From positions 254,434 through 318,433 of the forward strand of contig NW_019217977.1 in assembly GCF_002571385.2 (NCBI RefSeq): a stretch of DNA of 64,000 nt, written 5' to 3'. Each line of letters starts with the position of its first letter. The stretch's first letter is position 1. This document shows positions 13,002-21,342 of the stretch, in pieces. The position numbers and the translations under genes were made by a program. The notes beneath the pieces are model-generated. The model saw nothing but the letters and a program-made list of their open reading frames with translations. It had not been told where the DNA came from and made no database searches. The stretch is from Stylophora pistillata (taxonomy: Eukaryota).

Positions 13002-13505
13002 ATGGAGACACCAATTTATGTCGATGGAGCAACTTCGACCAGCGGAAAGAGTGTTTCGTTGAAACGGGTCATAAATCACAAAAAAGATCTTCAGAAGGAA
13101 ATTTCCGACTTGGAAAAACTTCAGAAGACCTTACTTCAACAGAGAAAAGATCTCGAATACATAAACGAGAATATCAGAGGCTGGGCTAAGAGCTTCGACA
13201 CCATTGAAAGAAATACTCAAGGTGTTCCCTTTGTGAGAAATGTCAAAGAAATTTGCGCGTCGATTGAAAACCTGTTGAATGATATTCATGGAGACTTTTA
13301 CTTCAGAATGCAGAATTTGATCACGGCAGATGTGCCATGTTTTCAGCAGGTTTATGAAGCCTTAGAGCTGTTGAAAAAACAAGTTTCGAAGATCATTAGG
13401 GATGATGCAGCCTACAAGGCGTCATTTATCGAAGAAATTCGACAGATCCTTGGACGCCTTACAGGCATCACTGATACTATGTTAGAAATTTATTTTGAAC
13501 AATAA
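13002..13505 (+). CDS. Uncharacterised helical protein, paralog B (167 aa)
   Basis: Intact ORF with QGVPFVRNVKEICA, DVPCF and FIEEIRQILGRLTG. Acceptor GCGCAG ends at 12996, 5 nt before the ATG. Upstream donor G|GTAAGC at 11881/2 and CCAAT near 11666. Confidence 0.85.
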   Translation: METPIYVDGATSTSGKSVSLKRVINHKKDLQKEISDLEKLQKTLLQQRKDLEYINENIRGWAKSFDTIERNTQGVPFVRNVKEICASIENLLNDIHGDFYFRMQNLITADVPCFQQVYEALELLKKQVSKIIRDDAAYKASFIEEIRQILGRLTGITDTMLEIYFEQ

Positions 13506-15832: not shown

Positions 15833-15962
15833 CTCGGGACAGACGGCGGTAAGATTTCCTTAAGGTAGCGGTTGACCGCCTAAAAAAAACCCTGTACGGG
15901 CACCAAGAATGTGGTTTGTAGAAAACCTGAATGTTTTATTTTATTTCTGAACATTTAGAGAC

Positions 15963-16457
15963 ATGACTAACGTAGGAAGCGATGGAATCCAAGAACTCAC
16001 GACGCGTGCCGAGAAGTTATCGATTACTTCTATTAACAAAGGCACCAAGCTGTTCAAAGCTCAAATCAGAGAACTGGATAAACAGTATGACACGATGCAA
16101 CAGCAACTAGAAGATCTACACTTTATCTTGGACGTTATCCTTAAATGGGACGAAGACTTCAAGAAAGTGGTACGATTTAGTCAGGGCGTGCCTCACATGA
16201 GGAGCACAAAGGAGATTTGCGCCAACATCAAGACGGCCATGATACCGAGCAGTGAGTTTGACCGCACGGTGCAGATTCTCATCAGAGATGGTGTGCCATG
16301 TTTCACGAGAGTGACAGGGCTTTTTGATAAGTTGAAATCTCGTCTCGATGAGAGGTCGCCAAACGCGAAGGTCTCTGAGGAGATTCGTCAACTGCTCGGA
16401 GAGTTAATCGGAACTTTGTGCACGATAATGAATTTCTTTTACGATCAAGAGGCGTAA
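15963..16457 (+). CDS. Uncharacterised helical protein, paralog C (164 aa)
   Basis: Intact ORF with QGVPHMRSTKEICA, GVPCF and SEEIRQLLGELIG. Acceptor ATTTAG ends at 15958. Upstream donor AG|GTAAGC at 15152/3 and CCAAT near 14966. Confidence 0.85.
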   Translation: MTNVGSDGIQELTTRAEKLSITSINKGTKLFKAQIRELDKQYDTMQQQLEDLHFILDVILKWDEDFKKVVRFSQGVPHMRSTKEICANIKTAMIPSSEFDRTVQILIRDGVPCFTRVTGLFDKLKSRLDERSPNAKVSEEIRQLLGELIGTLCTIMNFFYDQEA

Positions 16458-17597: not shown

Positions 17598-20171
17598 ATG
17601 GCGCTGAGTTATCACTTGTTGTTTAAAGTCCTCCTCGTCGGCGATCCCGACGTCGGCAGATGCGCCATCTTCCATCCACCGGCAGGTAACGCCTCGGTTT
17701 TGTCGGCTATGGGAGTGAATTTTCTCAAAAGGCAACTAGAAATCGGTGAGTAGTGTTCCTTCGGCGAGTACTTTTACGGTATTACGGATAACTGCTTGTC
17801 TGGCGTTCGCTCTTTATGCGCTACGATGCCGCAACTTACCCGAGTGTTGTTTTGAACCGGTAGTAGTGAGGGATTTAACGATACAGCTCGGCGACTATTT
17901 ATGGTTCAGTATACTCTAACGACGCTTTGAACTCCATGTTAGGGCGATATTTGCTTTGTGTTTGTAGAAATCGCAATACAACTTCGTTAACGAGTTGTCA
18001 ATATCATACCCTAGTAGTTCATAATTCCCCTGATAATTTTGTCATTCGTGTTTTTTTCCCGTCAAGCGAACAGCTGTTGTTATTAACTGACTTCTACGGA
18101 TAAGTCAGTTTTGTTTTTCTCAATCCACTTAAAATAATTGAGAAATGATCTGAAACTGTTATCGTTGGAAGAGGAATGCTTTTACTGGCGCGATACTTCC
18201 TAATTTGAAACATTGAAAAGCAAATATTTTACGTGCCTCGAAGGCATGATCTCGATTAAAAGCTGTCCTACTCGTATCTGACTCTTTCGACCGAGTTCAA
18301 TTAACTTTTCCTTTCAAACTTCAGATGGAAAACGAATAAAATTGCAGATATGGAATATTACAGGACAGGAAAGGTAAGAAGACATTGTGGAGTTAAACGC
18401 GCCACTTTGCTGTACGTCACGCGATTGCATGGTCACGCCATGTCAAGTTCTCGTTAACAGCTGCAGTCAAGTCTACGTTTTTGAACAAATTTCGTGCAAG
18501 GATTCTCATTAGCGTTATAGAAAGTTTCAAAATGCTCAAAGGAACACTTTCCGGTTGAAATGTTTCATTATCTTTCCTATTTAAAAACACTTCAGATTTT
18601 TCCCAACTGTAACACAGGAAGTCTATTATAATACAGAACGCGGAAGTCCACACCCTAGCAATAGCTACCTCCTCAGTGATACATTTCCGTTCGTAAACGA
18701 AATTTTTTAAATGTATTTTTGCCTGTGATACTCTCCCAGAAGCCCAAAAACGCTAATGAAAACGAGGCCTAGAAAAATGGTGAAATAAATGGAGTGTTGT
18801 GAAAACGCATCGTTCTTTAAAATGCTCAGCCTGCGAAGCAAGCCCTGGGGGAAAGGAGGTGGGATTGAGGGAGCGGAATGTGCGGAGCCCCAATCCCCCC
18901 TCCTTTCACCCAAGGCTTGCTTCGCAGGCTAAAAATGCTCGGTTCCGTTTATGAACAAGTGAAATCAGAGGCTCTTGAAAACGATGAGGAAAATAACGAA
19001 TCACGTATTAATTGTCGCCTCTATCAGCGTATCAGGCGTTTTGGTGAGAACGATGAAACGTAGAAGTGTTAATAAGGTGAGAGCCAAGCGAAGGACGCTT
19101 TTGTGGGCAGAATTTTGGTTGAGGGCCAAAATGCCAATTGGATTAGTGTCGTCGGCGTATGAAAGCTAATTCGCAGGAATGTCTCTTTCTCCGACCTTGA
19201 AAACCACAATCTCCCGTATGACGGTGTAGCAAAAAGATAAGTCACTATCCCCACCCACATACTGGGATTTTCAGTTGAGCGAAGCACGACGGACGTTAAA
19301 AGTTACATACAAAAATCCGGATATTTTTCAGGAATTTTAGGTTCAAACAAAATTTCTAGAGAACTTGAGGATCTTTGGAACAGTTAAGGATTTATAGACG
19401 ACAATTTTGGAAAAATGCAGCCAAATCTACGTGATTCGTAGATGCTTCTTTCATTGTTCCCAAAAGGGGTCCTTCCATACAAATACTACCGGTCAGAGAT
19501 TTCACGTTAAAGTTGTGTTTATGTCACGGGAAACTGGTCTCATTTCCAGTGGCAACGTGTTGTTTGACTTCTCTTATAGACGGGCTTCCGAATTTGACAG
19601 TTGGCGACGCACGGCTCTTGAGATTCGGTTACCGCTTGAAACGAGGAAGGTTACCCGTTGCAACACTTTTTCCGTGCCTCACTTATGCTCAACTAATAAT
19701 CATAGTGAGTTTCAATCGCTTTACATTGAAATCCAATTTTTTAGTACCCAGGCTGTCACTCCCAGCTACTATCACGGTACTCAAGGGTTCATCGTTGCTT
19801 TTGACGTCACCGATAAGAGTTCCTATGACAGAATCCTGGACTGGCTTCTTATTATTGAACAACACGCCAGCAAGCGAGGCTCTCAAAAGATGTTGGTTGC
19901 TAACAAGTGCCATTGTAAGGAGAGAAACCGCGTTATTACAGAAAAAGAGGGCGAAGCTCTCGCCAGAGAATTTGGTATGAGATATGTGGAAATCAACGAT
20001 CTGCAAGGCTCAGATATAGATGAGGTTCTAAAGCAGTTAATTCAAGACATCCTGAATAACAATGGCGCTCCAGGAAAAGTTGAAGATGGCCACAAAACGA
20101 ACATTTGTGAGTTGGACACGGAATATAACGGCACCAGAACTGGAGGAGAAAAGGAATCACTTCTCGGTTAG
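17598..20171 (+). CDS. Highly divergent Rab8/10/13-like protein, probable pseudo-GTPase (207 aa)
   Basis: Exons 17598-17745, 18325-18373 (49 nt) and 19745-20171 splice in frame at the same positions and phases as the next two Rab genes. Product: MALSYHLLFKVLLVGDPDVGRC...GKRIKLQIWNITGQE...YYHGTQGFIVAFDVT...LVANKCH...EINDL...KESLLG*. Confidence 0.8.
18828..18931. mobile_element. Short MITE
   Basis: AGCCTGCGAAGCAAGCC...GGCTTGCTTCGCAGGCT. Confidence 0.65.
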
Positions 20172-21342
20172 AGATTATAATCTCTTGCTTCTAGGTTAAC
20201 AAGTCTTCCGCGAATAGGACATTTTAAAAAAGATGTGGAAGTATTTCGCCTTAGAAAATCTTCGAAATTCTTCCATCAGATTTCGCGGGCAAAGCTTTTG
20301 TACGAAAACGAGATTTAATACAAGATTTTTCGAGAAGATACGTTTGCTAGCTAGGAATTTGCATATCCTATAACTTCAAGGTAGCCTCTTCTCGCAATTT
20401 ATCCACCCTCCCTTCTATTTCAAACAGTCAATCAAGGGCGAGATAGTTGTAGCTGCGCGTATAAACGTGCGAGCGTGTAGACACGCGAGGAAGGCGTCTC
20501 CTCGCTCGCCTTAGTACATCTAGCTAGTTCGTCAGAAAGAGTGCTGGCGCTTGGCGACCCGCGGGAGCATGAGAGAGACTGAAAAATCTATACGAGTTCT
20601 AAAATTTTTAAGTGAATTAATATATGAAAAATAACCTCGATGAGGGGTACATAGGCATTCACAGTATCTACCAAGGTTGGAATTTAGAAACTAACCACAT
20701 TTTTTCCCAACGATCGTCTTAGACATTTTTAATGTGACTTGGTCCATGTTGTAATTAAAATAAACTCAAGAGAATAGAATACGCCAATTTGGTAGGACTC
20801 AAACGCTCTTTCTCTGACTCGATATGTCTTTTCGCATGCACTCACAAAAATAAGGTTATTCGATAGTTTGAAGATCATTTTTGTTGAGTGCTCTTTGGTT
20901 AGTATTACTGTACCTCGATGTGGCAAACCTTGTCCTCAGAATGAGGTTCGGTGTGGCAGATCAAAGAATAATTCAGAGTGGAAGGAACTCCATTATCACC
21001 ACTTCATCGCCATGCACCCTTAGATAAATCCCTTGTGGACGGAAAAAGAAGACTTGAAAACAATAGCCTTTTATTTTTTTTTTTTTTCAAGTCCCAATTG
21101 ACAAATTTCAAATGGCGTAGGGCAGCCTGACACTCACAAACGCGCGAGAACAAAAAACTCGAAATAGTAAGGATTTTAACACGTAGTCACGTTAGACTTT
21201 TCATGTAATTTAATTTTTGACTTAATTTTAGTTTATTAGCTTCGCCGACAGGCAGGGACCCCGCAACAGCTTGCGCTAATGACTGCCACCCATCCCACCC
21301 CAGGGGAGGACATCCACCACACAGTGATGTCGTGCGTGGGAA

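What the first reader, a model, noticed from the sequence alone, without database searches (positions are those of the whole stretch)
17598..20171. Intact Rab paralog with every nucleotide-binding motif altered: candidate pseudo-GTPase
Seen: a 207-aa spliced ORF with the same 49-nt middle exon and intron phases as its neighbours. G1 GDSGVGKT becomes GDPDVGRC (P-loop Lys and Mg-binding Ser/Thr lost). Switch I STIGIDF becomes SAMGVNF (G2 Thr lost, ~3-aa deletion). G3 DTAGQ becomes NITGQ. G4 NKCD becomes NKCH (guanine-specifying Asp lost). G5 SAL becomes NDL. There is no terminal Cys motif (ends KESLLG). Core strands (FKVLLVG, IKLQIW, FIVAFDVT, MLVANK) are retained. Established: these residues are needed for GTP/Mg binding and geranylgeranylation. 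Inference: the fold is maintained while nucleotide chemistry is lost, as expected for a soluble scaffold or GEF/effector decoy rather than a decaying pseudogene. The ORF track misses exons 1-2.
Basis: partly seen in the sequence, partly recalled or inferred. Interest (0 to 1): 0.76.

Follow-up and report, generated by a model that had tools for sequence, protein, structure and literature searches.

The report
Stony-coral Rab that lost GTP binding
This coral gene is a spliced, transcribed copy of a Rab8/Rab10-type trafficking switch that has lost its GTP-binding motifs and lipid-anchor cysteines, yet is kept under purifying selection across both major stony-coral lineages, so it likely works as a fixed protein-binding adaptor rather than as a switch.

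Summary
The three-exon gene gives a 207-aa protein identical to an NCBI coral protein labelled 'Rab-13-like'. Both introns are spliced in 5 of 8 RNA-labelled runs laid.

It is not a pseudogene. Orthologs occur in Pocillopora, Orbicella, Oculina, Desmophyllum, Montipora and Acropora, form one clade (100/100), keep exon structure and neighbours where loci were seen, and show dN/dS about 0.12-0.2.

Across 8 lineages only 3 of 19 nucleotide-contact positions are invariant (15 of 19 in 8 canonical Rabs), against 18 of 28 partner-face positions (20 of 28). The F/W/Y triad is kept, but switch II is rewritten (RFRT to S[ST]QA), which fits a new partner better than a simple decoy.

One correction: loss of the P-loop Lys and G2 Thr is lineage-specific. 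G3/G4/G5 damage, the switch I deletion and loss of a prenylation motif are family-wide. Long-tailed forms end in a [DE]xxxL[LI] motif.

Best reading: a coral-specific class-i pseudoGTPase adaptor; binding is untested. I found no paper on it. The scan noted other dead Rab-like genes (Asgard archaea, Naegleria) but not this family.

The parts
17598..17745 (+). Exon 1 (residues 1-49): conserved N-terminus and beta1, degenerate P-loop, switch I shortened by 3 residues
   Evidence: splice joint in 5 of 8 runs
17640..17663 (+). G1 GDPDVGRC (canonical GDSGVGKT)
   Evidence: sequence; Rab8 T22 kept in 0 of 8 lineages (Ser in 1), K21 in 4 of 8
17703..17723 (+). G2/RabF1 SAMGVNF; G2 Thr lost in this copy, triad Phe42 (Rab8 F45) kept
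18325..18373 (+). 49-nt exon 2: beta3, triad Trp59, G3 NITGQ (18354-18368)
19745..20171 (+). Exon 3 coding part: rewritten switch II (STQA), triad Tyr74, G4 NKCH (19902-19913), G5 NDL (19995-20003), tail, stop
20148..20165 (+). EKESLL: [DE]xxxL[LI] dileucine-like motif where canonical Rabs carry the prenylated cysteines
   Evidence: pattern in 21 of 26 family tails and 0 of 233 canonical Rab termini; function inferred
20172..21256 (+). 3' untranslated region covered by spliced contigs
   Evidence: contigs end at 21256 in X1, X11 and X5
23317..26517 (+). Tandem neighbour B: Rab8/10-like gene with intact G motifs and C-terminal CPPC, same exon layout
   Evidence: an orthologous gene follows the pseudo-Rab in L016, with its exon 1 in L011 and L012
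27742..31121 (+). Tandem neighbour C: Rab8/10-like gene with intact G motifs and C-terminal CC, same exon layout

Best explanation
The gene encodes a Rab8/Rab10-derived protein, conserved across stony corals, whose GTP-binding motifs and prenylation cysteines are lost while its fold and partner-binding face are kept, so it likely acts as a nucleotide-free, non-switching adaptor (a class-i pseudoGTPase). Shown: splicing and transcription, one clade across robust and complex corals, purifying selection, released constraint on the nucleotide pocket, and kept constraint on the N-terminus, beta2-beta3 and switch II surface. Inferred: it arose by tandem duplication of the neighbouring Rab gene; it binds no GTP or Mg; it is not prenylated or cycled by REP/GDI; it holds a dedicated partner on the rewritten interswitch/switch II face; and its output is set by expression, not by exchange factors. 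More speculative: in long-tailed forms the terminal [DE]xxxL[LI] motif would recruit it to clathrin adaptor coats in place of the lipid anchor.
For: Spliced contigs. Named orthologs in Pocillopora, Orbicella, Desmophyllum, Oculina, two Montipora and five Acropora species. A clade of 12 rows with support 100/100 and a stem of 1.49 changes per column, split into Acroporidae-side and robust-coral groups. Same exon sizes and upstream neighbour in L011 and L015, and a canonical Rab downstream in L011, L012 and L016; adjacent locus tags in Oculina. dN/dS 0.11-0.18 for window vs L011 or L015 over the G domain, and 0.118 on a 5-sequence tree of 105 exon-3 codons, log-likelihood -891.8 against -938.0 for the best of four fits with omega fixed at 1. 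Invariant columns, family vs canonical set, 8 rows each: nucleotide contacts 3 vs 15 of 19; partner face 18 vs 20 of 28; other positions 31 vs 37 of 125; Fisher p 0.0012 for face vs pocket. The AlphaFold2 model keeps six strands and five helices, and Rab8a is the best Foldseek match (E 1.7e-16). The hydrophobic triad and RabF1-F4 form the shared partner surface (PMC5902227, passages).
Against: No biochemical data. G1 Lys is kept in 4 of 8 lineages, G2 Thr in 5 of 8, Gln64 (Rab8 Q67) in 8 of 8 and G4 Asn in 7 of 8; P0041 has a complete GxxxxGKS, so weak nucleotide or phosphate binding is possible in some members. The position sets come from my recollection of Rab8 structures, and the face set was fixed after seeing the alignment, so the p value is descriptive. 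Part of the face (beta1, beta3) is also structural core. One close pair (L011 vs L013, whole exon 3 with tail) gave dN/dS 0.46-0.70 on 5 synonymous and 9 amino-acid differences, and dS to the window copy is above 1. The dileucine pattern is missing in 4 of 4 Acropora tails and in P0041, and the Montipora match may not be homologous. The tree links the family to neighbours B and C only weakly (69/83, long branches meet). No partner is identified.
Confidence: 0.68

Rival explanations
1. Natural dominant-negative decoy: it mimics nucleotide-free Rab8/10 and soaks up their exchange factors or the chaperone MSS4, damping the neighbouring canonical Rabs.
For: Triad F42/W59/Y74 plus K55, Q57, Q64 and E65 match Rab8 in 8 of 8 lineages. 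The model has low confidence at residues 24-37, and the pocket is disordered in Rab8:MSS4 (PMC6767298, passages). MSS4 is present in this genome. The gene sits beside canonical paralogs.
Against: D44, K46, I47, R69, F70 and T72 are invariant in the 8 canonical rows and changed in all 8 family rows. A decoy should keep these. The low confidence may only reflect a 19-row alignment.
Confidence: 0.17
2. Atypical nucleotide binder: it still holds a nucleotide (weakly, without Mg, or a non-guanine one) but does not cycle, like a class-ii pseudoGTPase.
For: G15 and Q67 are kept in 8 of 8 lineages, G66 and N121 in 7 of 8, K122 in 5 of 8, K21 in 4 of 8; P0041 keeps GKS and the G2 Thr.
Against: The pocket residues vary freely between orthologs (K/R/N at K21; H/R/W/N/D at D124). 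F33 is deleted and G5 is replaced or deleted in 8 of 8 lineages. A conserved ligand should fix the pocket.
Confidence: 0.12
3. Transcribed pseudogene or assembly artefact.
For: Two runs of one study show contigs through intron 2 without the spliced form. Database gene models differ at the 5' end in Pocillopora damicornis.
Against: The open frame and exon layout are kept across robust and complex corals; omega is about 0.12; of 5 coding variants seen in other samples, 3 are synonymous, 2 missense and none disrupts the frame.
Confidence: 0.03

Closest known systems
Rab8/Rab10/Rab13 subfamily (human Rab8a, PDB 2FU5, 4LHW; Pfam PF00071)
   Same: Best sequence and structure matches (E 2.9e-37; E 1.7e-16). 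Same fold, triad and beta2-beta3 strand. 35-41% identical to canonical Rab8/10-like rows. Same introns as its canonical neighbours.
   Different: G1-G5 degenerate, 3-residue deletion covering F33, RabF3 rewritten, no C-terminal prenylation motif.
Class-i pseudoGTPase domains: AAGAB psGD (PMC12490416, passages read), p190RhoGAP pG1/pG2 (PMC5593906, listing and start of abstract only), CENP-M (recalled)
   Same: G-protein fold with G motifs missing or altered; expected role as a protein-interaction module.
   Different: Those are biochemically proven, and AAGAB and p190RhoGAP are parts of larger proteins. AAGAB binds through a surface away from the switches, whereas this protein conserves the switch/interswitch face. 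This one is a stand-alone, clearly Rab8-derived, lineage-restricted gene beside canonical paralogs.
Non-prenylated Rab-like proteins such as RABL2 and IFT27 (recalled; RABL2 seen only in a search listing)
   Same: Rab-like fold without a geranylgeranylated tail.
   Different: As recalled, they are ancient and still bind GTP; this family comes from the Rab8/10 branch and has lost the motifs.

Membership tests
Canonical Rab GTPase (Rab8/10 subfamily) | Ras-family G domain with closest kin among Rab8/10 | tested here: met
   PF00071 114.5 bits, residues 10-169
Canonical Rab GTPase (Rab8/10 subfamily) | Intact G1-G5 motifs | tested here: not met
   All five altered in this copy; 3 of 19 pocket positions invariant in the family
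Canonical Rab GTPase (Rab8/10 subfamily) | C-terminal cysteine motif for geranylgeranylation | tested here: not met
   Cys in the last 5 residues in 1 of 26 family tails (a single Cys at -5 in P0041) against 208 of 233 canonical Rabs
Canonical Rab GTPase (Rab8/10 subfamily) | RabF motifs and hydrophobic triad | tested here: inconclusive
   Triad, RabF2 and part of RabF4 kept; RabF1 partly changed and RabF3 rewritten
Class-i pseudoGTPase | Small-GTPase fold | tested here: met
   Predicted model, mean pLDDT 69.3, pTM 0.68, Foldseek TM 0.68 to Rab8a; a prediction, not a solved structure
Class-i pseudoGTPase | G-motif residues missing or altered | tested here: met
Class-i pseudoGTPase | No nucleotide binding and no hydrolysis in vitro | not testable with these tools
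   Needs mant-nucleotide, thermal-shift and HPLC assays as used for AAGAB
Class-i pseudoGTPase | Functional gene under selection rather than a pseudogene | tested here: met
Dileucine sorting signal [DE]xxxL[LI] | Consensus match conserved in a flexible tail | tested here: inconclusive
   21 of 26 tails: 18 of 18 long-tailed, 3 of 3 Montipora-cluster, 0 of 4 Acropora-cluster, not P0041; tail pLDDT under 50; consensus recalled
Dileucine sorting signal [DE]xxxL[LI] | Binds AP-1/2/3 hemicomplexes | not testable with these tools
   No spliced coral adaptor subunits were at hand

The most novel reading that the evidence does not exclude
At the origin of stony corals a Rab8/10 duplicate gave up both its GTP switch and its lipid anchor and became a fixed bridge: a rewritten switch II face holds a coral-specific partner while a C-terminal dileucine signal docks it on clathrin adaptor coats, serving a trafficking route special to skeleton-building corals.
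Probability: 0.12. Interest if true: 0.85.

Novelty: new variant of a known kind. Interest (0 to 1): 0.6.

Why it matters
Proven pseudoGTPases are few, and AAGAB uses a surface away from the switches. Here a stand-alone Rab lost its nucleotide pocket but kept and rewrote the partner face, with working paralogs next door as controls, so the step from switch to adaptor can be studied directly. All named members found are stony corals, including Desmophyllum, which I recall as lacking algal symbionts. That makes it a candidate trafficking innovation of the whole order and not only of symbiosis. Databases label it Rab-13, Rab-8B or Rab-10, so coral expression studies may be reading it as an ordinary Rab.

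Tried and rejected
Complex prediction of residues 1-172 with the second exon only (85 aa) of this genome's MSS4 gene gave no verdict: scores 0.11 and 0.01 against a mark of 0.34, no controls folded, alignment not used, partner fold uncertain. It is no evidence either way.

The ESM Atlas returned only generic Rab clusters.

The search of 50%-identity representatives (best 150 of 42,897 hits) added no new lineage. A family-versus-canonical profile test over 466 scored proteins gave a clean gap, with 89 preferring the family profile by 50 bits or more and the rest at -24 or lower, so no intermediate form turned up. The searches were capped (8000 candidates, best 120-150 listed), so absence from sea anemones or corallimorpharians is not shown.

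In the own genome one copy matched at 100% and the next at 35% among 24 matches.

The 257-aa stop-to-stop frame at 19398-20171 is rejected as the main product: it lacks beta1-beta3, and the spliced form is in 5 of 8 runs. Alternative exon-3 acceptors were listed; the RNA joints support 19745. dN/dS for neighbour B was saturated and not used.

Literature: ten searches found no paper on this family, and six accession numbers were in 0 papers. PMC12775022 treats only Rab4, 5, 7 and 11 of this coral (sections 6 and 17 read; no hit for the accessions, Rab8 or Rab13 in its supplementary files, one of six unreadable). They could hold cell-type data or a mention.

Full report
Observation. Joining 17598-17745, 18325-18373 and 19745-20171 gives a 207-residue frame with GT..AG introns. 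The two downstream genes (B, 23317-26517; C, 27742-31121) have the same 49-nt middle exon and intron phases but intact G motifs and terminal cysteines. The product is identical to P0008, which NCBI names 'ras-related protein Rab-13-like' of Stylophora pistillata. The gene is therefore annotated, but as an ordinary Rab.

Expression. Of 24 runs listed, 19 hold exon 3, and I laid 8. Both junctions appear in X6, X10, X7, X11 and X5, and intron 2 also in X1. In X7 and X11 a single contig carries all three exons. X13 and X14, from one study, show contigs through intron 2 and no junction, which may be retained introns, an internal start or DNA. Contigs give no expression level or strand.

Distribution. 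Three word-indexed searches and three cluster look-ups found the same degenerate protein in Pocillopora verrucosa and P. damicornis, Orbicella faveolata, Desmophyllum pertusum, Oculina patagonica, two Montipora and five Acropora species, plus unnamed forms. In a 43-row tree the 12 family rows form a clade (100/100) on a stem of 1.49 changes per column. Eight robust-coral rows group at 99/97, and the Acroporidae rows group with P0041 at 80/54. That these two groups match the deepest split among stony corals is recalled. The link to neighbours B and C is weak (69/83, with a long-branch warning), so tandem origin rests mainly on position and shared introns. Metagenome loci L011 and L015 keep the 148 and 49 nt exons and the upstream gene; L011, L012 and L016 have a canonical Rab downstream. 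No member was found outside stony corals, although anemone Rab10 proteins are in the same database. The searches were capped, so absence is not proven.

Selection. Over the 171-codon G domain, dN/dS is 0.11-0.17 (window vs L011), 0.16-0.18 (window vs L015) and 0.20-0.24 (L011 vs L015, dS about 0.2) by three methods. The upstream gene gives 0.05-0.09, so the constraint is real but looser. On 105 exon-3 codons from five sequences omega is 0.118, and fixing it at 1 costs 46 log-likelihood units at the best of four kappa values. One close pair with the tail included gave 0.46-0.70 on 14 differences.

What is constrained. Using Rab8 numbering from P0316 and one row for each of 8 lineages, the nucleotide-contact positions are invariant at 3 of 19, against 15 of 19 in 8 canonical Rab8/10-like rows. 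Partner-face positions are invariant at 18 of 28 against 20 of 28, and the remaining positions at 31 against 37 of 125. The position lists are from my knowledge of Rab8, and the face list was fixed after seeing the alignment. Family-wide damage: F33 is deleted in 8 of 8, G5 is replaced or deleted in 8 of 8, the DTAG motif is altered in 8 of 8, and NKxD is broken in 8 of 8 (Asp lost in 7, Lys in 3). K21 survives in 4 of 8 and T40 in 5 of 8, and P0041 has a full GxxxxGKS. That is the stronger argument that no nucleotide is selected for.

The partner face. Y5, F9, K10, G42, F45, K55, K58, Q60, W62, Q67, E68, Y77 and Y78 match Rab8 in 8 of 8 lineages. A review states that the switch and interswitch regions (RabF1-F4), with a hydrophobic triad, contact almost all Rab partners (PMC5902227, passages). 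Next to these residues the family has its own invariant ones: D6H, I47K, R69S, R71Q, T72A and A76S. A decoy for Rab8 regulators should keep I47, R69 and F70. Fixing new residues points to a different, dedicated partner. This is inference, and no partner was identified.

Tail. None of 26 tails has a recognised prenylation motif; one has a single Cys at -5. A [DE]xxxL[LI] pattern near the end is present in 18 of 18 long-tailed forms while the three inner residues vary (KES, KEM, KKF, GDF, EEL), and in 3 Montipora-cluster rows. It is absent from 4 Acropora-cluster rows and P0041; 0 of 233 canonical Rabs end so. These rows are related, so this counts as one or two events. The consensus as an adaptor-binding signal is recalled.

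Structure. AlphaFold2 on a 19-row alignment gave mean pLDDT 69.3 and pTM 0.68, six strands and five helices, a short helix 1, and low confidence at residues 24-37 and 173-207. Foldseek ranks Rab8a first. The low-confidence stretch is also the least conserved (1 of 13 columns invariant).

Comparison with what is known. It fails membership of the canonical Rabs on motifs and prenylation. It meets the sequence and fold criteria of a class-i pseudoGTPase as applied to AAGAB (PMC12490416, passages); the biochemical criterion could not be tested. Papers seen: PMC12775022 (abstract, sections 6 and 17, term search, supplements searched), PMC5902227, PMC6767298, PMC12490416 and PMC13393502 (passages), PMC13236570 (abstract and outline), others as listings only. 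Ten searches found no description of this family. The scan's own notes show no look-alike sequence but several other dead Rab-like genes in Asgard archaea and Naegleria, so the kind recurs while this family seems undescribed.

Verdict. A real, conserved, mislabelled pseudo-Rab family of stony corals, and a new variant of a known kind. The adaptor reading is given 0.68, decoy 0.17, atypical binder 0.12, pseudogene 0.03. Interest 0.6.

Noticed in passing
window 10042-10596 (-), 12978-13505 (+), 15951-16457 (+); L011:838-1329, L015:904-1446 and 6551-7035: Three paralogous 165-185 aa open frames without introns and without a Pfam family over cut-off. The first and third have 85-87% identical orthologs next to the pseudo-Rab in other corals; dN/dS 0.05-0.09 for the third. 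The Atlas gave only a weak spectrin-like lead.
   Followed up: partly
window 23317-26517; L016:3371-4877; P0048: Neighbour B is a fast-evolving Rab with intact G motifs but the triad tyrosine (Rab8 Y77) replaced by cysteine in the window, in Oculina and in L016: the reverse pattern to the pseudo-Rab.
   Followed up: partly
window 18574-20742: Runs X13 and X14 have long contigs starting inside intron 2 and running through exon 3 without exons 1-2; possibly an internal start or intron retention in that study. A 257-aa database protein (P0038) matches this unspliced frame.
   Followed up: no
window 27742-31121 and 33222-33572; P0263: One database model (PFX23835.1) fuses neighbour C to the next open frame and drops its CC end; RNA contigs cover 30705-31500 continuously, so the fusion looks like a gene-model error.
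   Followed up: partly
G000 loci L003, L006, L008: Several other Rab genes of this genome lie in single open frames without introns, two of them side by side on contig C1.
   Followed up: no
window 969-1322, 7386-7751, 8733-9086: Exon-like frames resembling a myeloid leukemia factor (MLF) gene; recognised from memory only.
   Followed up: no
window 58358-61459 (-): Frames with an RHGDR motif, resembling a histidine acid phosphatase; recognised from memory only.
   Followed up: no
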